From contig NC_090328.1 of the NCBI RefSeq assembly GCF_035084215.1, positions 56,544,001 through 56,608,000 on the forward strand: a DNA stretch of 64,000 nt, written 5' to 3'. The stretch comes from Heptranchias perlo. Its lineage: Eukaryota. The position numbers were made by a program, and so were the translations under genes. The notes beneath the pieces are model-generated. The model searched no databases and was not told where the DNA came from. It saw nothing but the letters and a program-made list of their open reading frames with translations. Below are positions 10,460 to 53,100 of the stretch, one piece after another; the first letter of the stretch is position 1; each line of letters opens with the position of its first letter.

Positions 10460-10940
10460 CTCCAACTCTCGACGGTCAACAGATATGAAGCTGCTGCAGG
10501 TGAGGGGCAAGAGGTGAGCTCGAGGGGGCGGTCCCTCGAATCACGTGATTAGGTAAAGTGGGCGGGGCCGATAAAGCAGGCCGGTCTCGCGCGGGTGGTT
10601 CTTACGCGTGATGTCACGGGGTGCGTCGGTGGTGACGTTGAAGGGAGCGAGAGGAGCTGAGGAAGAGTGTTGTGTAACTGCGACAGGTGAGCGGGGCCGG
10701 GAGAGGGAAAAGCGGCTTTCTCTTTTGTTTAATGGAGACAAGGGGGCTGTTCTGCTTGAGGCCGGGAGCCAGGGGCCGTGCGGTCGGTGATGTCGAGTGC
10801 CCGCCCCGGACTCTAATGAAGGAGCAGGCGAGCGGTCACCGGCACGGCCCGGCCTCTGGTGGGAGCGAGTCTTTCGCTTCCCTCGCCCTTTCCCACCCCT
10901 TCTGATCTGTTCAACGAGTTTCCACCTGCCGGGCGGACTC
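10460..10940 (+). promoter_or_regulatory. CpG island / YTHDC2 promoter
   Basis: The densest CpG block in a CpG-depleted window. Contains E-box palindrome AATCACGTGATT (10539-10550), GC box GGGCGGGG (10560-10567), CRE-like TGATGTCA (10609-10616) and TGACG (10633-10637); no TATA box. Confidence 0.85.
10620..10686 (+). other. YTHDC2: Probable non-coding first exon of YTHDC2 (start approximate)
   Basis: Strong donor CAG|GTGAGC at 10686/10687 within the CpG island; the first coding exon has an acceptor 7 nt before its ATG. Confidence 0.65.
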
Positions 10941-11214
10941 TGACCTCTTTTGCCACCCTCCCCTTTCAGCTAAATAGGGAGTTATTGAAGCAGAGTTTTT
11001 GGGCTGTTTCTACTTCAGCGTTGAATGATATTGAACACAGGGGACGCCATGTATTTCACTGACTGACCATACCCATTACCTGAACAGTTAGAGTTTGAAT
11101 GTAGTTAATCCAGTAGTGACGCATTTACTGACTTCAGACTAGGTTTGTCCTGTTCTGAATATTCATCACTTGGGTTTGATGTAGATATATAATTCAGAAT
11201 ATATTTATTTATAC

Positions 11215-12990
11215 TTCATAGTATCATAGTAGGCATAGCATAGGAGGAGACCGTTTGGCTCATCGTGTCTGTGCCAGTTCCTTGAAAGAGCTATCTAATT
11301 AGTCCCATTCCCCTGCCCTTTCCCCATAGCCCTGTAGTTTTTTCCCTTCAAGTATTTATCCAATTCCCTTTTGAAAGTTGCTATGGAATCTGCTTCCACC
11401 ACCCTTTCAAGCAGTGCATTCCAGATCATCATAAGTGCTGTGTTTTAAAAAAAAAATTTGCCATGTCGCCTCTGGCTCTTTTGCTGCTCACCTTAAATCT
11501 GTGTCATAAGAACATAAGAAATAGGAGCAGGAGCAGGCCAATCGGCCCCTCGAGCCTGCTCTGCCATTCAATAAGATCATGGCTGATCTGATCCTCTGGT
11601 CACTGACTGTTCTGCCACTGGAAAGAATTTCTCCTTATTTACTCTGTCAAAACCGTTCATTATTTTGAACATCTCTATCAAATCTCCCCTTAACCTTTTA
11701 AAATTGTACCATTTGGTTTATGTTGCCTCTCCTCATTCTTCCTACCAAAATACATCACTTCAAAGTTCTCTGGTAAATTTCATCAGCTGTGTGTCTGCCC
11801 ATTTCACCAGTCTGTCCCCCTGAAGTCTGTTACTAATCTCCACATTGTTTGCTATATTTCCGAGTTTCATGTCATCTGTAAACTTTGAAATTGTACCCTA
11901 TATACCGAAGTCCAGGTCATTAATATATATCAAAAAGAGCAGTTGTCCTAATACTGCCCCCTGGGCACACCACTGTATACTTCCCTCCAGTCTGAAAAAC
12001 AACTGTTCACCATTACTCTCTGCTTTCTGTCCCCTCGACAATTTTGTATCCACGCTGCCACTGGTCCCTTTAATCCCATGGGCTTTAATTTTGCTAACAA
12101 GTCTATTATGTGGTACTTCATCAAATGCCTTTTGATAGTCCATATACATATCAACCCTCTGTGTTACTTCATTAAATAACTCAATCAAGTTAGTCAAACA
12201 CGATTTTCCTTTAACAAATCCGTGTGCTGATTTTCATTTATCAGCCCATACCTTTCTAAGTGCCAATTTATTTTGTCCCAGATTATTGTCTCTAAATATT
12301 TCCCCACCACTGATGATAGGCTGACTGGCCTGTAATTGCTGGGTTTATCCCCCTCCTTTTTTGAACAGGGGTGTAACATTTGCAATCCTCCAGTCCTCTG
12401 GCACCATCCCCATATCTAAGGAGGGTTGGAAGATTGTGGCCAGAGCCTCCACAATTTCCACCCTTCCCTCAGTGACCTCAGTCCCATCTGGACCAGGTGA
12501 CTTTTCTACTTTGAGTACTGCCAACCTTTTAAGCACCTTCTCTTTACCTAATTTTATCCTATCCAATATCACTACTATCTTCCCCTTTTACTGCTACAAT
12601 GGCAGCATCCTCTTTGGTCTCATGTTGGTGGTTGCAGAAACACCTGTCTGTTCCCCTGACTATCACATTGCCGATAACAAATGCATTTCTTTTGCTCCCC
12701 TGTGCAGCTGAGTCTCCCGTGATGCCGTGGATTTGCTCCTGACTGCACTACCCCGAGATGTTAACATCCTCACTGGTATTCAACACTGAATACTGGTTTG
12801 TGAGCCACACTCCCAGGGGACTCCTGCACTGCCTGTCTGTTTCTCCTAGTCCGTCTGGTAGTCACCCACTCACTCTCCGCCTGAACTCTCTGTAGCTGCG
12901 GGGTGATCACCTCCTGAAATGTGTTATCCACGAAACTCTCAGCTTTCCGTATGTGCTCTAGTGATGCCAGCTGCCCCTCAAGCTCAAGCG
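11215..12990 (-). mobile_element. Fragmented CR1 LINE with a nested short CR1 3' end (~11506-11592)
   Basis: Minus-strand ORFs KVEKSPGPDG, PEDWRIANVTPLFKKG, NYRPVSLSSVVGK and DYQKAFDEVPHNRL; 3' tail at ~11215. Confidence 0.88.
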
Positions 12991-13064
12991 CTCTTGAGCA
13001 TTAATTGCACAGCAAAATAGTTTCTGCTGTGGTGCCAAAGTTGAAGTATAACTGCATAAATCCA

Positions 13065-13269
13065 TGATGTGGAGATGCCGGTGATGGACTGGGGTTGACA
13101 ATTGTTAACAATTTTACAACACCAAGTTATAGTCCAGCAATTTTATTTTAAATTCACAAGCACGTCGTTTTCACATCGTTCACCTGACGAAGGAGGAAGC
13201 CTCCGAAAGCTTGTGAATTTAAAATAAAATTGCTGGACTATAACTTGGTGTTGTAAAATTGTTTACAAT
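13065..13269. mobile_element. Penelope-like element terminal relic with inverted repeats and 12-bp TSD
   Basis: TGCATAAATCCA at 13053-13064 and 13270-13281; 63-bp inverted arms 13099-13161 / 13209-13271 (1 mismatch); related copy at 26530-26654. Confidence 0.8.
13179..13217 (+). ncRNA. Minimal type I hammerhead ribozyme motif
   Basis: UUCAC-CUGACGA-A-GGAGG-AAG-CCUCC-GAAA-GCUU-GUGAA: both core boxes, stem I UUCAC/GUGAA, stem II GGAGG/CCUCC, palindromic AGCU stem III and a CUU cleavage triplet. Confidence 0.75.
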
Positions 13270-13699
13270 TGCATAAATCCAATCAGTGATTTGAAAGTGA
13301 AATCCCTCAACAGTGGTGGGAGGGTTCCCCACCAGAAGTGCAAATTCCTTCTTTTGAAGTTGAAGTCTCCAGCGCCTGTTAGATGTGCAGCATCATAACC
13401 TTATTGTATTGACCAATGTGAGTGGGGCTGATTACCAAATTTAGAATTGCAGACAACAAGTGATTTTGGAGTACCAGTACAAATTGGCGTTCTGTCCTCA
13501 CTTTTCTAACTGTTCCCTGTGTGCTATAAATGTGCACAAATGTATTCTGGAGTTATTTAAACTTGTCAGGGGTTCAAGAAGCTGCTCTAAATCACTCAAG
13601 TTTTGCTCTTGTGGTTTATGACATCTGAACCATTTGAAATTAAAGATTTGTCGTCACACTCGGGTATCTTGTGTTTTTCTCATTCCTGTTTTGCATTAA

Positions 13700-14630
13700 T
13701 AAGCTTGCAGAATGGGCATGTAATTGGCAAATGAATTTCAATATAGATAAGTGTGAGGTGGTACATTTTGGTAGGAAGAATAAGGAGGCCACTTATTATC
13801 CAAGGCTTGGATAATAGTCTAAATGAGGTGGAGGAGCAGAGGGATCTGGGGGTACGCATACATAAATCACTAAAAGTAGCAGTGCTGGTTAATAAGACTT
13901 TTTTTAAAAAAAAGCAAACCAAGCACTGGGTTTCATTTCTAGAGGGATAGAATTTGAAAAGCACAGAAGTTAGTTAAACTTGTACCGAACCTTAGTTAGA
14001 CCACACTTGGACTACTGTGAACAGTTCTGGTCTCCATATTATAAAAAGAATATAGAGGCACTGGAGAAGGAGCAAAAAAATTCACAAGGATGATACCAGA
14101 AATGGAAGGATATACTGAACAGGCTGGGGCTGTTTTCTCTGGAAAAGAAGACAGAGGTGACCTGATAGAGGTCTTTAAGATTATGAAAGGTTTTGATAGG
14201 GTAGAAGTAGAGATGATGTTTCCACTTGTGAGGAGACCAGAACTAGGGGCCATAAGCATAAGATCACTAAAAAATCCAATAGGGAATTCAGGAGAAACTT
14301 CTTCACCCGGAGAGTGGTAAGAATGTGGAACTCGCTACCACAAGGAGTAGATGAGGCGACTAGCATAGATGCATTTAAGGGGAAGCTAGATAAACACATG
14401 ACCATATTCTGACTTACTATGCAACGCCACTGCAGATCAACGAGCATTTTTTAATAAAATGTGTAGGGCACACACTTCCTCGCCTTGCTACCTGTTGGAG
14501 AAAGGAATGGAAGGATATGCCGATAGGGTTAGATGAAGTAGGGAGGGAGGAGGCTCGTGTGGAGCATAAACACCGGCATAACCCTGTTGGGCTGAATGGC
14601 CTGATTTTGTGCTGTACATTCTATGTAATA
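13700..14630 (+). mobile_element. 5'-truncated CR1 with a ~97-bp unrelated insert (~14401-14496)
   Basis: WQMNFNIDKCEV, EEQRDLGV, RGDLIEVFKIMKGFDRV; tail GTGCTGTACATTCTATG. Confidence 0.88.
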
Positions 14631-15496
14631 TAGAAGATGGCAGCTGACCTGGGAGAGAGGCTTCAGAAACTTACTCCACAGTCACCTAATGGTCAGAGCT
14701 TGCAACCACATTGTAATAGTTGACATAGCAAAATTGAATGGGAAATATTGACAGAAGAGTATGTCCAAACATTGTGACAACAGGTAGCAAGGAAATGTGT
14801 ACCCTACACATTTAAAAAAATAAAATAATGCTAGTTGATCTGCAGTGGGTGTTGCACACAGTAAGTCAGAGAATATGGTCACTCTCTTACCTGTATCTGA
14901 TTTTGTTTCTTTCTCTGCTCTCATTCTGTTCCCCTCTGTCTCTCCTTACCTTCGCTTCTCTTTCCTCCTGCTTGTCTTTTTTTCTTTTTGGGTGGTAGAT
15001 GGTGGATGGAATGCTGTGGTGGGGAAGAGAGTCACCAACAGCTGCAGGCTGCATTTGCGGTAGGGGTTGCAGGGAAAATGTGGCTTAGTGGCTCGCTTCC
15101 CTCCAAGGACATCCCTTATATGCTTGGCCTCAATATACTTGGTACTCAGCATTTAGGGTGAATTATGCATTGTGTACTGAATATATTTAATGTGCTACTC
15201 ACTGGGATACAGTATGGATAATTTGTAATCAATATGGTGATCATTTGTAAGGGAGTAGAACTAGTAAACATTGAGGGATTGGAGATGTCAAAAATGATGA
15301 AACATGTTGGTGCAAACTAGTGGAATATCATTTAAATTTCATTTTGAACAGTGAAACTCAGCCAAATTACATAGTTTGAGGTAGGAATTAATAGTTTTGT
15401 TTAAATACTTCTGGTATTGCTCATTGTGTAGAATTAATTTAAGATACTTTTACATGTAAAAAATTTCAACACCATTCTTGATTCCTTAGATCTAAT

Positions 15497-15653
15497 ATGT
15501 CAAGGCCTACAAGTGTGTCCCCACGACCTGGCAGCGCCCAATCAAGCCAAGCTGCCTCTAAAGCCAAAGGATTTAAGGATATCCGGATTGATGAAGAAGT
15601 GAAAATTGCAGTTAACATCGCCCTAGAGAGATTCCGTTACAGTGATCAAAAAG
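15497..15653 (+). CDS. YTHDC2: YTHDC2 coding exon 1 (exon begins 15490; ATG 15497)
   Basis: MSRPTSVSPR...KDIRIDEEVKIAVNIALERFRYSDQK; acceptor TTAG|A, donor AAG|GT; ends phase 1. Confidence 0.95.
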
Positions 15654-15914
15654 GTGGATGCAGTAACTGCATTTGTTGCTGAAAAATTCTTTTCGATTTT
15701 CTTTGGCATTAATATTTGGATAATGAAACTTGGATTGTTTTGAAATAGTCATTGGATAATACTTTTGCTTTTGTATTTTGATTTTAAAAACATAATTGAA
15801 AAATAAAATAATTTGTAAGTTAAATTCCATATTGAAGTTTCTATCAAATATTCTGCTTAGACCATGTGCATTACAAAATAAATTTCCTTTTAATTTTCTT
15901 GGGACTATTATTGA

Positions 15915-16800
15915 AGGAAGGAAGGAACTTGACTTTATTCAGTCCCTTATCACGACCTCAGGTCATCCTAACCGCTTTACAGTCAATGGGTTATTTTCAA
16001 AGTGCAGTCAATATTATTAAACAGACAAACACGGCAGTTAGTCTGCATGCTGCAAGGACCCACAAACATTAAATGAATGAATAGCCAGTTAATCTGTTCT
16101 TGTGGTGTTGATTGAGAGAGGACTGTTGGCCAGTACACCGGGAGAACTCCTTGCCTTTCTAATACTGCTATGGGATCTCATGTCTAACTGAGCAGCCTTG
16201 GCTCAGAGGTAGCACTCTTGCCTCTGAGTCAGAAGTTTGTGGGTTCAAGTCATCCTTGAGCACAAAATCTAGATTGACACTTCAGTGCAGTACTGAGGGA
16301 GCGCTGCACTGTCGGAGGTGTCGTCCTTTGGATGAGGCGTTGTACCTAGGCCCTTCTGCCCTCTCTCAGGTGGGCATAAGATCCCATGGCACTATTCAAA
16401 GAAGAGCAAGGGAGTGCTTGCTGGTGTCTTGGCCAATATTTATCCCTCAACCAACAGCACTAAATCAGATTATCTGATCACTATCTTATTGCTGTTTGTG
16501 GGACCTTGCTGGGTTTCCTACATTACAACAATGACAACACTTCAAAAGTACTTCATTGGCTGTAAAGTACTTTGGGAATATCCTGAGGTTATGAAAGGTA
16601 CTATATAAATGTAAGTTCTCTCTCTCTTTGAGCAGGCATACAGGGCTTCAGTTTGACATCTCATCCAAGAGATGGTACCTTCTTCAATCCTGCACTGAAA
16701 CATTCTCAGTACTGCACTGATGTGTCAGCCTTAAATTATGTGATCAAACCTTTTGGGCTTAAACGCACAATTTTCTGAGTTAGTTGAGCCAAGCTGACGT
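15915..16800 (-). mobile_element. Old Deu-domain SINE split by a younger opposite-strand SINE
   Basis: 15915-16190 and 16630-16800 together resemble the minus-strand SINE at 63397-63845. Confidence 0.65.
16192..16628 (+). mobile_element. tRNA-headed Deu-domain SINE (SacSINE1-like) with L2-type tail
   Basis: A box TGGCTCAGAGG, B box GGTTCAAGT, CAGTGCAGTACTGAGGGAGCGCTGCACTG and GGATGAG core, tail CTATATAAATGTAAGT. Confidence 0.82.
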
Positions 16801-16804
16801 GTAA

Positions 16805-18640
16805 GCACTCAACCTATCGTGCCTGTGCTGCTTTTCTGGAAGAACTATCCACTTAGTCCCATTCTCTGCCCTTTCCCTATAGCTTTTAAGATTTTTCTTT
16901 TACAAATACTTACCTACTTCCATTTGAAAGTTATTATGGATTCTGCTTTCACCACTGTTTCTGATCAGGCATTCATGTTCTTTGCATTAATAAAAAAATT
17001 TCCTAACCTCTTGTTCTTTTGAAATTACTAAAGATATTTTAATGCACCACATGACTTTACACAACATTTTTCATCTTTCCCTGTGATCATTGGTTGTCAG
17101 CTTGAAAATCCTTTGTGAAGATAAGTCATAAATTGGGGAGAGCCACAGTTCCAATTAGTGTAAACATACAAATTTGATCTGAGGTAGTTTAAATTTTTAA
17201 TGTGTTAGAATTATACAATTTTATAGGAAAGCTTTTGGCCCATCGTGTCTGTTAGCTGTCTGAAAGAGCTATCGACTTAGTGCCTTTTCAGTATATCGTT
17301 TTTAAAAAAAAATTATTTTTCATAGAATCACACAGCACAGAGGAGGCCATTCAACCCATGGTGCCTGTGCCTGCCCTTTGAAAGAGCTATCCAATTAGTC
17401 CTACTCCCCCGCTCTTTCCCCATAGTCCTACAATTTTTTCCATTTCAAGTATATATCCAATTCCCTTTTGAAGGTTACTATTGCATCTGCTTCCACTACC
17501 CTTTCAGGCATTGCATTGCATTCCAGATCATAACTCGCTGCGTAAAAACATTTTTGCCTCGTCTCCCCCCTGGTTCTTTTGCAAATTATCTTAAATCTGT
17601 GTCCTCTGGTTAGCGAACCTCCTGTGAGTGCAAACAGTTTCTCCCTATCTACTATCAAAACCCTTCCTAATTTTGAACACCTCTATTAAATCTCCCCTTA
17701 CCCTTCTTTGCTCTAAGGAGAACAATCTCAGCTTCTCTAATCTCTCCACATAACTAAAGCTCCTCATCCCTGATGCTGTTCTAATAAATCTTCTCTGCAC
17801 CCTCTCCAAGGCCTTGACATCCTTGCTAAAATATCGTGCCCAAAATTGGACACAGTACTCCAGATGAGGCCTAACCAGTGATTTATAAAGGTTTAGCATA
17901 ACTTTGTTGCTTTTATCTATGCCTCTACATTTAAAGCCAAGGATCCCTTACGGGTTTTTTCACAGCTTTATCAACTTGTCCTCCCACCTTTTTAAATATG
18001 TATTCACTAGATTCTGCTTCCACTACTCAGTCTCGTAGGACATTCTATGTCCTAACAATAGACTGCCTAAAATTAAATAAATACGTTCTTATAACCTTTT
18101 CTTTTGGTGATGATCATAAATTTGTGCAATCAAGTTAAGAACTCATTGACCAGTCTTCACAGTAAGCCATACTCCCTATTGTGACATATACTTGTCACAC
18201 AAGACTTGCCTTTTACAAATCTGCATTGGCTGTTTGTGATTAATCCATGTTGTTGTAAGTGATTATTAATTTTATCCTGTATAAACCTGTAGAAGCTTAC
18301 TACTGATGTTAGGCTGATCAATCTATAGTTACGCAGTTTATCTCTTTGTCCCTTCTTGAGCAGAGATGTTACATTGGCGACCGCCCATTCCTCTGGCACA
18401 ATTTCCATGTCCAGGGATGTTTGAAAGATTGTGGTCAGATACTCTGCTATTTCCTCTTTGGTTTCCCTCAGTATTTTAGGATGCATGTCACCAATTTTGA
18501 CAGAGTTCCACCAACTGCTTCAGTACTTCCTTGTTATCTGTAGTTCTATCTAATTGCTGCACTTTCTCTTTTACCACTGTCACCTATCTTTGAAAACGGA
18601 GGCAAAATCTCCACTCTTTCAGAGACGTTTTTCTTTAGTC
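16805..18640 (-). mobile_element. Cluster of CR1 fragments (main copy ~17320-18000)
   Basis: LYKSLVRPHLEYCVQFW...RGDLIEVFK and HPKILRETKEEIAE...NYRLISLTSVV. Confidence 0.85.
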
Positions 18641-19448
18641 TCTAGTCAGCTTCGTAACTGGCACTGTAAATGCTCTATCATATGTACATTGGTTTGCCAG
18701 TACTTTTTGCTGTGATTCCCTAATGCAACATGTTTTGATTGTAGCTCACGAGAGAGAGTAGAAAACAACTTGTTTTAGTACAGGTAGAAATAGAAAATCA
18801 CTTTGATGAATCACTCTGAGCCACTCTTCTGCATGCACTAATGGGGCAGGGGATTGCAGGCCAGTATTAGTAGGAGCTGGAGCAGGTTGGCTGCCAATGC
18901 TCTTGACTGGAGAATGGTGCATAGCATAGGAACCTGAAACAAAATAATGAAAAGGTGAAGGAATTGTGCAATGTGTATGAGAGGAAAGTTGATACTTGGG
19001 TAGTAATCCTATTTAATGGTTAAGACGTCTTCAGTCTGGAGCACCAAAATTCTAGCAGGTTATCATCTGAATACCAAGATAAGATCACCAAACTGGAAAT
19101 CATTCCCATGATTCCCCTTGTGTAAGATACACTTTGAAGTTAAAGTTATGTTTTGGTTCCATTTCTTTTGTTGACAGCAGATGCCGTGTGTGTGTGGAGG
19201 CCATTGTCCTTGTATAGTAAGCTTTCATTCTAGGGAACATAGTTTATTGTTTTGGTAAGAACTCGAATGAAGATGACTGAGAAAAGAATGTTTCACCATT
19301 CATTGCAAAATTGGGGGTTCTAACAGTATGCTGCAGAGTCTCTTGCTGCGATTTGATGTACTTGAGGCATTTCAAATTATGTAAACTAGGTAAAATATTA
19401 CATAACTGCCATTTGCACCAGCTACAACTGATTTGTTTTTTCTTCTAG

Positions 19449-19539
19449 AAATGGAATTTCCATCCTCCTTGACTAGTACAGAAAGGGCATTTATTCATCG
19501 TCTTGCCCAGTCCCTTGGCTTGATCTCTAAAAGCAAAGG
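19449..19539 (+). CDS. YTHDC2: YTHDC2 coding exon 2 (R3H)
   Basis: EMEFPSSLTSTERAFIHRLAQSLGLISKSKG; TAG| acceptor, |GTGAGT donor; 91 nt. Confidence 0.96.
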
Positions 19540-26009: not shown

Positions 26010-26872
26010 AACAACAACTTGCATTTATATAGTGCCTTTAATGTAGTAAAATGTCCTAAGATGCTTCGCAGGAGAGTTATCAAACAAAATTTGACACCGA
26101 GCCACATGAGAGATTAGGACAGGTGAAAGAGGTAGGTTTAAAGTTGGACAGAGAGGTTTAGAGAAGGATTTCCAGAGCTTAGGGTCTAGGCAGCTGAAGG
26201 CACAGCTGCCAATGGTGGAGCGAAGAAAATCGGGGATGCACAAGAGGCTGGAATCGGAGGAACGCAGAGATGAGGGCTTTCGAGCTGGAGAAGGTTAGAG
26301 ATAGGGAGGGGCGAGGCTATGGAGGGATTTGAAAACAAGGATGAGAATTTTAAAATCAAGGCGTTGCCGGACCAGGAGTCAGTGTAGGGCACAGGGGTGA
26401 TGGGTGAACGGGACTTCGTGCGAGTTAGGATACAGGCAGCAGAATTTTGGATGAGCTCAAGATTACGGAGCTGCAAGATGGGAGACTGGCCAGGAGAGCA
26501 TTGGAATAATCAAGTCTAGAGGTAACAAATGTAAACAATTTTACAACACCAAGTTATAGTCCAACGATTTTATTTTTAATCGTTGGACTATAACTTGGTG
26601 TTGTAAAATTGTTTACAATTGTTAACCCCAGTCCATCACCGGCATCTCCACATCAGAGGTAACAAAGGCAGGGATGAGGGTTTCAGCAGCACGTGAGGCA
26701 GGGGTGGAGATCAGCGATGTTATGGAGGTGGAAGTCGGCGGTCTTGGTGATGGAGAGGATATGGGGTCGGAAGTTCAGCTTAGGGTCAAATAGGATGCCA
26801 AAATTATGAAGTCTGATTCAGCCTTAGACAGTGGCCAGGGAGAGGGATGGAGTCGGTGGCTAGGGACCGAAG
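26010..26872 (-). mobile_element. L2 LINE 3' fragment, interrupted at 26530-26654
   Basis: LELIQNSAACILTRTKSRSPITPV; tail GGCACTATATAAATGCAAGTTGTTGT on the minus strand. Confidence 0.88.
26530..26654. mobile_element. Second Penelope-like terminal relic, opposite orientation, with perfect 40-bp palindrome and 12-bp TSD
   Basis: AGAGGTAACAAA at 26518-26529 and 26655-26666; arms 26530-26569 / 26578-26617. Confidence 0.8.
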
Positions 26873-28088: not shown

Positions 28089-29465
28089 GTAAGTAAAAGC
28101 TAGTGAACAACATTTTATATGTACCTAGTATCCTGTAATAAAATAAAGTCCACTTTTGTGGTATTTAATTTGCCACGGCCTCGACACTTTGACTATCAGT
28201 CTTCCTTTTTTTAAGTCTCATAAGCTGTTCACTTAAAGAATATTTGGTATTGCCACAAGAGCAGACCTTTTTAAAGTGAAGATAGTTTGGCAAAATATTA
28301 CCATTTGCCACTTCAGTTAAACATGGTCATAAATTTGAGCTTTGAGAGGAAATTTAAACTGCTGATAATTTATTACCAATTAGTACCACATTATCAGTAT
28401 TACTCAGACCAGAAGGATGGGTAGTGTGGTAAATGAAAATGTCGCAATGATACAATAGGAGATGTTTTTCTAGGCTGGGTTAAGATACATTGGACATAGC
28501 AGAGGGAGCTTCTCTGCATCCATGTTGTCCCTACCTGGGGATGCTTTAATCTGATACCAGTTGCCTAAAATGAAGATGTGTTCCCATTTCCCATTGTGAA
28601 CAAAAATAATCCTTATTGAGGTTTGGTACAGTATAACTCTGACCTTAGTATATCATGCTGTCTGCACTGCTCACATATCTTATGTATGCAGTGACCATTA
28701 AGTCAGTGGAGCAAAATGTTTCTTGGTATTAGTTATGGACACTTACAGCAATGTACCTAAGTGGATGTTTTCTGAGGGTTAGTATTTATATAGAGGATGA
28801 AAGAATTTTGTAAAACTAGGCAAATACTTGTTTCATTTTGAGAATAGGAATTTTAGGTAGACTCATGACTAAATACAGGTTACTAAGTGGGGTAGTGAAT
28901 TATGTCATATATTTGTCACTCTTTAAGGCAGAAGGCATCTGGGAAAATTGGAGCTTAATGTACTCTGGGATGGTCACTTCGTTGGCTAACATGTGGATGG
29001 CTCCTCTTGAAGCCAGCTGCAGGACAGCAATCTAAAGTAGCATGTTTCCTTTCACATTGGCTCAATGGATACTGTAGGAAAGAAAAGTTTATATCCGTGA
29101 CTGATCAGGGTGATCTGTTCCAAGTTAGCCTTAAGATGCAAGTTATTGGAACCCTGCTGCCATTTTTTTTACACTCTTGGTTTGGCTAGATTCACCCATG
29201 AGCGGGATTTTATCATCGTCCCTTAGGGTAAAATTAACCGGGACACTGTTTCTTTAAGCAGGTCACTAGGAGGTTACTGGAGTCTTTGGAGCAAGACACC
29301 TGTTCTGTTGGTGAGAGAGTAGTGAGTGGCATTAAAGGGACTTGAGAGATGACAATAATTTGGAAAATGTGTAATAGAACTAACTGACATGCCTTTGTCA
29401 AACTCTTGGTCATGGTAAACAATTTAAAATTATATATTGTATCAGAGAAATTGCAGATTCAACTA

Positions 29466-30373
29466 TGGATTTTGGTGGCATTGTAAGCAGTGTAGATGAA
29501 AACATAAAATTACAAAGCGATATTGGTAGATTAGGTGAATGGGCAAAACTGTGGCAGATGGAATTCAATGTAGGCAAATGTGAGGTCATCCACTTCGGAC
29601 CAAAAAAGGATAGAACAGGGTACTTTCTAAATGGTAAAAAGTTAAAAACAGTGGATGTCCAAAGGGACTTAGGGGTTCAGATACATAGATCATTGAAGTG
29701 TCATGAACAGGTGCAGAAAATAATCAATACAGCTAATGGAATACTGTCCTTTATATCTAGAGGACAAGAGAACAAGGGGGCAGAAGTTATGCTGCAGCTA
29801 TACAAAACCCTGGTTAGACCGCACGTGGAGTACTGTGAGCAGTTCTGGGGACCGCACCTTCGGAAGGACATATTGGCCTTGGAGGGAGTGCAGCGTAGGT
29901 TTACTAGAATGATACCCGGACTTCAAGGATTAAGTTACGAGGAGAGATTACACAAATTGGGGCTGTATTCTCTGGAGTTTCGAAGGTTAAGGGGTGATCT
30001 GATCAAAGTTTATAAGATATTAAGGAGAATGGATAGGGTGGATAGAGAGAAACTATTTCCGCTGGTTGGGGATTCTAGGAGTAGGGGGCAATGTCTAAAA
30101 ATTAGAGCCAGACCTTTCAGGAGCGAGATTAGAAAACATTTCTACACACAAAGGGTGGTAGAAGTTTGGAACTCTCTTCCGCAAACGGCAATTGATACTA
30201 GCTCAATTGCTAAATTTAAATCTGAGATAGATAGCTTTTTGGCAACCAAAGGTATTAAGGGATATGGGCCAAAGGCAGGTATATGGAGTTAGATCACAGA
30301 TCAGCCATGATCTTATCAAATGGCGGAGCAGGCACAAGGGGCTGAATGGCCTATTTTTATTCCTATGTTCCTA
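29466..30373 (+). mobile_element. Young 5'-truncated CR1 with uninterrupted 275-codon ORF2 end
   Basis: WQMEFNVGKCEV...LYKTLVRPHVEYC...RRLRGDLI...WNSLP; tail ATTCCTATGTTCCTA. Confidence 0.93.
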
Positions 30374-50149: not shown

Positions 50150-53100
50150 ATTTTTTTTTTATTCGTTCTGGGATGTGGGCGTCGCTGGCAAGGTCAGCAT
50201 TTATTGCCCATCCCTAATTGCCCTTGAGATGATGGTGATGAGCCGCCGCCTTGAACCGCTGGAGTCCGTGTGGTGAAGGTTCTCCCACAGTGCTGTTAGG
50301 TAGGGAGTTACAGGAGTTTGACCTAGCGACGATGAAGGAACAGCAATATATTTCCAAGTCGGGATGGTGTGTGAATTGGAGGGGAACGTGCAGGTGGTGT
50401 TGTTCCCATGTGCCAGCTGCCATTGTCCTTCTAGATGACAGAGGTCATAGGTTTGGGAGGTACTGCTGAAGAAGCCTTGGTGAGTTGCTGCCATGCATCC
50501 TGTGAATAGTACATAATGCAGCCACTGCGCGCCGGTGGTGGAGGGAGTGAATGTTTAGGGTGGTGGATGGGGTACCAGTCAAGCGGGCTGCTTTGTCCTG
50601 GATGGTGTCGAGCTTCTTGAATGTTGTTGGAGCTGCACTCGTCCAGGCTAGTGGAGAGTATTCCATCACACTCCTGACTTGTGCCTTGTAGATGGTGGAA
50701 AGGCGTTGGGGAGTGAGGAGGTGAGTCTCTTGCCGCAGAATACCAAGCCTCTGACCTGCTCTTGTAGCCACAGTATTTATGTGGTTGGTCCGGTTAAGTT
50801 TCTGGTCAATGGTGACCCCCAGGATGTTGGTGGGGGATTCGGCAATGGCAATGCCATTGAATGTCAAGGGGAGGTGGTTAGATTCTCTCTTGTTGGAGAT
50901 GGTCATTGTGTGGCACTTGTCTGGCGCGAATGTTACTTGCCACTTATCAGCCCAAGCCTGGATGTTGTCCAGGTCTTGCTGCATGCGGGCTCGGACTGCT
51001 TCATTATTTGAGGGGTTGCGAATGGAACTGAACACTGTGCAATCATCAGCGAACACCCCCATTTCTGACCTTATGGTGGAGGGAAGGTCATTGATGAAGC
51101 AGCTGAAGATGGTTGGGACTAGGACACTGCCCTGAGGAACTCCTGCAGCAATGTCCTGGGGCTGAGATAGTTGGCCTCCAACAACCACTACCACCTTCCT
51201 TTGTGCTAGGTATGACTCCAGCCACTGGAGTGTTTTCCACCTAATTCCCATTGACTTCAATTTTACTCAGGCTCCTTGGTGCCACACTCGGTCAAATGCT
51301 ACCTTGATGTCAAGGGCAGTCACTCTCACCTCACCTCTGGAATTCAGCTCTTTTGTCCATATTTGGACCAAGGCTGTAATGAAGTCTGGAGCCGAGTGGT
51401 CCTGGCGGAACCCAAACTGAGCATCAGTGAGCAGGTTATTGGTGAGTACGTTCCGCTTGGTAGCACTGTCGACGACACCTTCCATCACTTTGCTGATGAT
51501 TGAGAGTAGACTGATGGGGCGGTAATTGGCCAGATTGGATTTGTCCTGCTTTTTGCGGACAGGACAGGGAAATTTTCCACATTGTCGGGTAGATGCCAGT
51601 GTTGTAGCTGTACAGGAACAGTTTGGTTGAGGCGTGGCTAGTTCTGGAGCACAAGTCTTCAGCACTACAGCCAGGATGTTGTTGGGGCCCATAGCCTTTG
51701 TTGTATCCAGTGCACTCAGCCGTTTCTTGATATCACGTGGAGTGAATCGAATTGGTTGAAGACTGGCTTCAGTGATGATTGGGATATCTGGAGGAGGCCA
51801 AGATGGCTCACCTACTCGGCACTTCTGGCTGAAGATGGTTGCCTTGTCTTTTGTACTCATGTGCTGGACTCTGCCATAATTGAGGATGGGGCTGTTTACA
51901 GGGCCTCTTCCTCCATTAGTTGTTTAATTGTCCACCACCATTCATGACTGGATGTGGCAGGACTGCAGAGCTTTGATCTGATCGTTTGGTTGTGGCATCG
52001 CTTAGCTCTGTCAATGGTATGTTGCTTCCACTGTTTAGCATGCATGTAGTCCTGTGTTGTAGCTTCACCAGGTTGGAACCTTTTTTAGGTACTCCTGGTG
52101 CTGCTTCTGGCATGCTCTTCTACACTTCTCATTGAACCAGGGTTGATTCCTTGGCTTGTTGGTAATGGTAGAGTGAGGAATAAGTTACAGATTGTGCTAG
52201 AATATAATTCTGCTGCTGCTGATGTCCCACATCGCCTCATGGATGCCCAGTTTTGAGCTGCTAGATTTGTTATGAATCTATCCCATTTAGCACGGTGGTA
52301 GTGCCACACAACACGTTGGATGGTGTCCTCAGTGCGAAGATGGGACTTCGTCTCCACGAGGACTCCTACCAATACTGTCATGGACAGCTGCGTCTACGAC
52401 AGGTAGATTGGTGAGGACAAGGTCAAGTAGGTTTCTCCTTCGTGTTGGTTCGCTCACCACTTGCCGCAGGCCCAGTCTGGCAACTATGTCCTTCAGGACT
52501 TGGCCAGCTCGGTCAGTCGTGGTGCTACCAAGCCACTCTTGGTGATGGACATTGAAGTCCCCCACCCAGAGTACATTCTGTGCCCTTGCTACCCTCAGTG
52601 CTTCCTCCAAGTGTTCCTCAACATGGAGGAGGACTGATTCATCAGCTGAGGGAGGACGGTAGGTGGTAATCAGTAGGAGGTTTCCTTGCCCATGTTTGAT
52701 GCCATGAGATTTCATGGGGTTCAGAGTCAATATTGAGGACTCCCCGGGCCACTCCCTCCTGACTGTATATCACTGTACCGCCACCTCTGGTCGGTCGGTT
52801 GGTCTTGCCGGTGGGACAGGACGTACTCAGAGATGGTGATGGAAGAGGCTTGGACGTTGGCTGAAAGGTATGATTCTGTGAGTATGGCTATGTCAGGTTG
52901 TTGCTTGACTCGTCTGTGGGACAGCTCTCCCAATTTTGGCACAAGTCCCCAGATGTTCGTGAGGAGGACTTTGTAGGGTCGACTAGGCTTGGTTTGCCTT
53001 TGTTGTGTCCAGTGCCTAGTGGTCCGAGGCCGGGTGATCCGTTCGGTTTTATTCTTATTATGACTTTTCGTAGCGAGATTGTACAACTGAGTGGCTTGCC

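What the first reader, a model, noticed from the sequence alone, without database searches (positions are those of the whole stretch)
13179..13217. Intact minimal hammerhead ribozyme on the sense strand of YTHDC2 intron 1
Seen: CUGACGA and GAAA core boxes, 5-bp stem I (UUCAC/GUGAA), 5-bp stem II (GGAGG-AAG-CCUCC), an extra A after A9, a loop-less palindromic AGCU stem III, and a CUU site predicting a cut after 13212. Established: Penelope-like elements carry minimal type I hammerheads that work as dimers, and an extra A at this position is tolerated in some viroid hammerheads. Inference: it lies in sense orientation between the probable first exon and the ATG exon, so it would be transcribed in the pre-mRNA and could cut intron 1.
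Basis: partly seen in the sequence, partly recalled or inferred. Interest (0 to 1): 0.7.

Follow-up and report, generated by a model that had tools for sequence, protein, structure and literature searches.

The report
Penelope hairpin masks its own ribozyme
This 39-base self-cutting-RNA motif in the first intron of a shark's YTHDC2 gene is real, but it is one of 5,238 identical copies left by a Penelope-type jumping gene, and here it sits in a fold-back insertion that is predicted to pair off its own cut site, so it is likely an inert passenger.

Summary
The motif is as described: minimal type I hammerhead at 13179-13217, sense strand of YTHDC2 intron 1 (10687-15489; spliced joint seen in 2 of 4 transcript-like runs). 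It is not a YTHDC2 feature. It is the terminal-repeat ribozyme of a Penelope-like retroelement (Neptune/Nematis type): the identical 39-mer occurs 5,238 times in the genome, related cores at least 52,543 times, and the window's sense arm is 99-100% identical to repeats beside RT/GIY-YIG reading frames. This copy is a 208-bp head-to-head insertion with a 12-bp target duplication. The motif needs a dimer partner, and the nearest sense copy lies 58 kb downstream. Published relatives show no monomer cleavage. About 4% of 4.8-kb introns should hold such a sense core by chance. The scan found this family before on other DNA of this genome. Verdict: real, known kind, likely inert here.

The parts
13053..13064 (+). 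Target-site duplication, left copy (12 bp)
   Evidence: Exact 12-bp repeat with 13270-13281; best flanking repeats of 11-17 bp in 27 of 29 sister copies
13064..13161 (-). Inverted arm: 3' part of the element's terminal repeat plus the 35-nt tail (13064-13098) that ends at the first two bases of the ORF's ATG; it stops inside the hammerhead's stem III, so there is no ribozyme on this strand
   Evidence: 98 of 98 bases align to L114:661-758, ATG at 757; 99% identical to L146/L147 repeats
13162..13167 (.). Six-base junction between the two arms, origin not found
   Evidence: junctions differ among sister copies
13168..13271 (+). Sense arm: 5'-truncated terminal repeat (pLTR) of the Penelope-like element, without tail
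   Evidence: 103 of 103 and 104 of 104 identical to repeats in L145-L147, two of which flank RT/GIY-YIG frames
13179..13217 (+). Minimal type I hammerhead motif; predicted cut after 13212
13099..13271 (.). 63-bp fold-back stem (13099-13161 with 13209-13271) around a 47-nt loop; covers the cut site and stem I 3' strand
13270..13281 (+). Target-site duplication, right copy
10612..10686 (+). YTHDC2 exon 1, non-coding (5' end not mapped), in the CpG-rich stretch
   Evidence: Contig X3 record 17 and joint table; CpG o/e 0.88 at 10501-11000
10687..15489 (+). YTHDC2 intron 1 (4,803 nt, GT..AG), host of the insertion
   Evidence: Spliced joint in X3 and X4
15490..15653 (+). YTHDC2 exon 2 with ATG at 15497
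   Evidence: tblastn of P0001/P0003; joints

Best explanation
The motif is the terminal-repeat hammerhead of a Penelope-like retroelement, carried into YTHDC2 intron 1 by a 208-bp head-to-head insertion, and it is likely inert there because the insertion's upstream inverted arm is predicted to pair off the cut site. Shown: element identity, copy number, target duplication, two-arm layout, position in a spliced intron. Inferred: the element's GIY-YIG nuclease made a staggered cut about 12 bp apart and its RT laid down two short copies of the RNA leader in opposite directions. In the full-length tandem element two hammerheads about 3.04-3.08 kb apart would pair through the AGCU palindrome (probably with the element's protein) to cut out a unit RNA. 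In this intron the left arm is transcribed first, so 13209-13271 zips into a 63-bp duplex, stems I and III cannot form, no partner is near, and the intron is spliced out and degraded.
For: 5,238 exact 39-mers, control 0; 20,976 35-mers plus 31,567 cores with another stem II. Sense arm 99-100% identical to repeats beside frames with YIDD and GIY-YIG-type motifs; sister-subfamily full-length copies have 907-918-codon open frames with a hammerhead at each end; RVT_1 hit on P0121, E 5.2e-9. 12-bp TSD. Hammerhead-compatible fold 16.95 kcal/mol above the ensemble, stem I probability 0.0 in 13064-13271; prefix folding gives stem I at most 0.13. Nearest sense core 58 kb downstream, itself behind an inverted arm. 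Expected chance of a sense core in a 4,803-nt intron 3.9%. Exon 1-exon 2 splice seen. A Schistosoma minimal motif had no detectable monomer cleavage and low dimer cleavage (PMC4209133); the Anolis PLE hammerhead cut only with protein, and no RNA-seq reads ended at its site (PMC11167929).
Against: All inactivity evidence is prediction or from other species. Prefix folding leaves a brief window: for 13064-13217 alone stem I and II are favoured (0.88-0.98), though with 12950 as start stem I is 0.13. The core is intact and the family is abundant in transcript-like contigs, so partners in trans or element protein may exist. Splicing across an intron does not exclude some cleavage, and it is unknown whether the sequenced animal carries this insertion. 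Rfam gives no hammerhead hit and Pfam found no GIY-YIG domain in the two shark fragments scanned, only in a 30% identical relative.
Confidence: 0.88

Rival explanations
1. The copy is cut now and then, when element protein or a second transcript supplies the dimer before the hairpin closes, but this has no selected role for YTHDC2.
For: Intact core; short co-transcriptional window; protein-assisted cleavage in the Anolis element; very many family transcripts or contigs.
Against: Window lasts about 4-6 nt of elongation; the AGCU duplex is worth only -2.5 kcal/mol and unconstrained two-strand folding does not give the hammerhead dimer; CUU is not one of the fast GUC/GUA triplets (PMC3138052).
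Confidence: 0.08
2. One reading: a functional intronic ribozyme that cuts YTHDC2 pre-mRNA and tunes this meiosis gene, like the conserved amniote intronic hammerheads.
For: Sense orientation in intron 1 is confirmed; conserved intronic hammerheads exist in RECK, CTCL, DTNB (PMC6155905).
Against: Identical to thousands of young repeats with intact TSD; location expected by chance; the same gene holds four more insertions of the family, with cores on both strands; cut site masked; no helix III.
Confidence: 0.03
3. The hammerhead shape is a chance reading of a repeat sequence.
For: Bare core pattern is at chance level in the window; no Rfam hit.
Against: Stem pairs covary across subfamilies: 90.9% of 320 cells paired, 4 of 10 pairs with two-sided changes, 0 of 500 shuffles reach the covariation score; the motif sits in the pLTR where PLE hammerheads are described.
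Confidence: 0.01

Closest known systems
Minimal hammerheads (min-HHR) in pLTRs of metazoan Penelope-like elements (Cervera and De la Pena 2014, PMC4209133; read parts 1-2 of 4: results, discussion, start of methods)
   Same: Type I, no helix III loop, palindromic 15.2-16.2, extra base between A9 and G10.1, G10.1-C11.1 pair, stem I of 4-5 bp, place in the pLTR, thousands of mostly solitary truncated copies in fish, coelacanth and frog genomes.
   Different: Stem II is 5 bp (7-8 bp in the Schistosoma families); cut triplet is CUU; sharks were not named in the parts read.
EN+ Penelope-like elements, Neptune/Nematis type, with inverted pLTR, tail and TSD (PMC8557442 and PMC3846280; passages only)
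   Same: RT followed by C-terminal GIY-YIG, CX4CX2C linker and two cysteines inside the GIY-YIG motif, 5'-truncated copy joined head-to-head to an inverted copy, 35-nt tail on one end, TSD.
   Different: This copy has no ORF at all (208 bp); clade not fixed by a tree.
Poseidon element PAc of Anolis (Frangieh et al. 2024, PMC11167929; read parts 1-2 of 4)
   Same: pLTR hammerhead, tail signature, tandem full-length units.
   Different: In PAc the ORF starts at stem II; here the ATG lies 121 nt downstream of C3 and the tail ends at it; Poseidon lacks the zinc-finger linker.
Conserved intronic hammerheads of amniotes: RECK, CTCL, DTNB (PMC6155905; passages only)
   Same: Type I hammerhead in an intron of a host gene.
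   Different: Those are conserved across classes and drawn with tertiary contacts; this one is a young multicopy repeat with a minimal core and a masked cut site.

Membership tests
Minimal type I hammerhead of PLEs | Catalytic boxes CUGANGA and GAAA with NUH site | tested here: met
   H = U, allowed but not among the fastest triplets
Minimal type I hammerhead of PLEs | Helices I and II supported by covariation | tested here: met
   32 distinct of 41 rows; inner stem II pair A-U 11, G-C 10, C-G 2, unpaired 9; stem I wobble changes. Caveat: core and outer stem II pairs were fixed by the search patterns, rows are related, and 11 of the 30 loci were used with all 30
Minimal type I hammerhead of PLEs | Extra nucleotide between A9 and G10.1; G10.1-C11.1; palindromic 15.2-16.2 without loop 3 | tested here: met
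   A13191, G13192-C13204, AGCU 13208-13211 against the criteria
Minimal type I hammerhead of PLEs | Located in the pLTR of an RT/GIY-YIG element | tested here: met
Minimal type I hammerhead of PLEs | Self-cleavage as dimer or with protein | not testable with these tools
   Needs an assay
Rfam hammerhead families | Covariance-model hit | tested here: not met
   No hammerhead family among hits at E up to 10 or up to 5 in 20 loci
EN+ PLE insertion | Inverted 5'-truncated copy, 30-40-bp tail on one end, TSD | tested here: met
EN+ PLE insertion | RT plus C-terminal GIY-YIG with CCHH in the autonomous partner | tested here: met
   RVT_1 on P0121; motifs read in translations; Pfam GIY-YIG hit only on the relative P0131, none on the two fragments
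Neptune clade | CX2-5CxxC linker between RT and nuclease (shared with Nematis) | tested here: met
   CHGNLCKTC; criterion
Neptune clade | RT phylogeny | not tested
   No named reference RTs were fetched
Domesticated intronic hammerhead (RECK type) | Single-copy, conserved across distant species | tested here: not met
   5,238 identical copies and intact TSD; the orthologous site in other sharks could not be read
Non-LTR retrozyme | Tandem units each with a hammerhead | tested here: not met
   One core only in the window; criterion in 10.64898/2026.07.22.740005

The most novel reading that the evidence does not exclude
The family's hammerheads do cut host pre-mRNAs in vivo when unmasked (with element protein or a partner transcript), and the fold-back arm is a built-in safety catch, so selection has left mainly hairpin-masked copies on the sense strand of introns. 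Both sense cores in YTHDC2 sit behind an inverted arm, against 16 of 30 cores in an unselected sample (some being two arms of one insertion). With over 50,000 cores this genome could give a population-scale test of whether minimal hammerheads are active in vivo.
Probability: 0.08. Interest if true: 0.65.

Novelty: new member of a known kind. Interest (0 to 1): 0.12.

Why it matters
As found, little: one of tens of thousands of Penelope remnants, and the link to YTHDC2 is most likely coincidence. The useful point is general: whether minimal PLE hammerheads cut in vivo is still open, and a genome with this many young copies in masked and unmasked form, sense and antisense in introns, allows a statistical test. 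If this copy did cut intron 1, it would be a young transposon-derived RNA switch on a meiosis gene.

Tried and rejected
Rfam scans gave only hairpin-driven miRNA hits below gathering score, no hammerhead. Pfam gave no relevant hit on two C-terminal ORF fragments. No run holding the gene is on record as RNA; the runs used are guessed RNA, contigs only, X1-X4 one sample. Empty-site test: runs X5 and X6 of a related organism laid 0 contigs on 12960-13480 at 88% likeness, and no contig of X1 or X4 bridged the insertion or an empty site in the listed rows; this may be a filter effect and is not used as evidence. Contigs cannot show RNA ends, so the cut site could not be checked; family contigs that run across it come from unknown copies and strands. 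The hammerhead dimer was not recovered by unconstrained two-strand folding, which such models are not built to show. A same-strand pair of exact 39-mers 3.3 kb apart (L145) proved to be separate small insertions without ORF. No full-length copy of the exact stem II subfamily was found among 25 loci or the three; the complete frames seen belong to sister subfamilies. One pair print-out was offset by one base and was not used. Paper searches: Penelope+hammerhead+shark (4 papers, none on this family), hammerhead ribozyme+Penelope+elasmobranch (0), YTHDC2+hammerhead (3 listings, titles unrelated); most subscription papers and repeat databases were not searchable, and supplements of PMC4209133 and the preprint were not seen and may list shark motifs.

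Full report
Observation. The bare core pattern is at chance level in the window (4 matches, 3.73 expected) and Rfam returns no hammerhead model, so the evidence that it is a real motif had to come from elsewhere.

Host gene. An exon of the window matches YTHDC2 proteins, best from sharks. tblastn places all coding exons on the + strand from ATG 15497 to about 19 kb beyond the window end. Contigs of four runs guessed to be RNA (one sample) show a GT..AG joint from 10686 to 15490 in 2 of 4 runs and from 15653 to 19449 in 2 of 4.

What it is. The motif is part of a repeat. The exact 39-mer occurs 5,238 times in the 3.25-Gb genome, 0 for the reversed control; a 35-mer with position 7 free occurs 20,976 times, and cores with a different inner stem II base another 31,567 times: at least 52,543 cores, one per 62 kb. 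The window copy is a 208-bp insertion (13064-13271) between 12-bp direct repeats (13053-13064, 13270-13281). It has an inverted arm (13064-13161), a 6-nt junction and a sense arm (13168-13271). All 29 sister copies that were fetched share this layout with differing junctions, and 27 of 29 have flanking repeats of 11-17 bp. The sense arm is 99-100% identical to repeats lying about 250 bp downstream of frames that carry the RT motif YIDD, a CX4CX2C linker and a GIY-YIG-type motif with two internal cysteines (L146, L147). Sister subfamilies have complete open frames of 907-918 codons with a hammerhead at both ends, 3.04-3.08 kb apart, some in tandem. The related protein P0121 hits Pfam RVT_1; Pfam GIY-YIG was hit only by a 30% identical relative. 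The inverted arm ends at the first two bases of the ORF's ATG. This matches the published layout of endonuclease-bearing Penelope-like elements: 5' truncation, inverted copy, 30-40-bp tail on one end, TSD (PMC8557442 and PMC3846280, passages). The linker points to Neptune or Nematis rather than Poseidon; no tree was built.

Is the fold selected? At family level, yes. In 32 distinct rows of a 41-row alignment, 90.9% of 320 cells pair, 4 of 10 pairs change on both sides, and 0 of 500 shuffles reach the covariation score; slid controls pair 23-52%. The inner stem II pair is A-U, G-C or C-G in different subfamilies but unpaired in 9 rows, and the outer stem I pair is unpaired in 15. The core was fixed by my patterns and the rows are related, so this is support, not proof. 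It concerns the element's history, not this copy.

How it likely works. In the autonomous element, two hammerheads one unit apart would pair through AGCU to form helix III and cut out a unit RNA; this is the model of Cervera and De la Pena (PMC4209133, parts 1-2 read), who found no monomer cleavage and low dimer cleavage for a Schistosoma motif. In the Anolis element the hammerhead cut only when the protein was added, was not needed for insertion in vitro, and left no read ends in RNA-seq (PMC11167929, parts 1-2 read). In the window copy three things argue against cutting. First, the left arm pairs with 13209-13271 over 63 bp at 98%; this covers the cut site and the 3' strand of stem I. With the whole insertion, the hammerhead-compatible fold lies 16.95 kcal/mol above the ensemble and stem I has probability 0.0. 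Folding prefixes from 12950, stem I peaks at 0.13 at 13217 and the arm holds the cut site at 0.998 by 13221; in five native-context loci without a near arm, stem I was 0.07-0.98, so native folding is itself variable. Against this, the shorter prefix 13064-13217 favours stems I and II, so a brief window cannot be excluded. Second, there is no partner: the only other sense core in the gene lies 58 kb downstream and has its own inverted arm. Third, CUU is allowed by the NUH rule but is not among the fastest triplets (PMC3138052, passages). That the two arms were made by two priming events is inference, also proposed in earlier unchecked notes of this scan.

Is the location special? No. The density gives a 3.9% chance of a sense core in any 4,803-nt intron and 1.2 cores expected in the 73-kb gene; four cores were found in it, two sense and two antisense, in five insertions. 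The conserved intronic hammerheads of amniotes (PMC6155905, passages) differ in being conserved across classes. A preprint on animal retrozymes (10.64898/2026.07.22.740005, part 1 and passages) reports tandem hammerhead repeats in one cartilaginous fish and some depletion from Xenopus introns; this copy is not tandem.

Novelty and verdict. New member of a known kind. My searches found no paper on this shark family or on a YTHDC2 hammerhead, but the class is described and the scan has met this family many times in this genome (241 notes fit the look-up). Observation confirmed, interpretation partly supported. Interest 0.12. The boldest reading left open is that unmasked copies cut host pre-mRNAs and selection favours masked ones in sense introns (probability 0.08); 16 of 30 sampled cores have an upstream masking arm within 1.5 kb, which gives the baseline for that test.

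Noticed in passing
window 26518-26666: Second hairpin insertion of the same family in a YTHDC2 intron, opposite orientation, too short to include the hammerhead; 12-bp flanking repeat read by eye.
   Followed up: partly
window 13106: The single mismatch between the arms turns 13100-13113 into a perfect 14-nt palindrome. The variant is in 0 of 84 arms of L002-L060 but recurs elsewhere; of 15 loci chosen for it, 3 had a second scorable arm, 1 sharing it and 2 not. It may be a recurrent template-switch change or a sign of two templates.
   Followed up: partly
L125:240-443: Family insertion in a downstream YTHDC2 intron whose centre repeats the stem II/III segment three times and lacks CUGA, suggesting repeated template jumps.
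   Followed up: no
L125:7147-7691: Head-to-head insertion with a complete core on each strand and a piece of the element's ORF (linker region) in the spacer.
   Followed up: no
L122, L123, L124, L111-L114: Full-length tandem copies with open frames of 907-918 codons and identical hammerheads 3.04-3.08 kb apart: the family looks recently or currently active.
   Followed up: partly
window 13700-14400, 29384-30289, 50448-51923: Fragments of non-LTR retrotransposon RT frames in the introns; family labels not tested.
   Followed up: no
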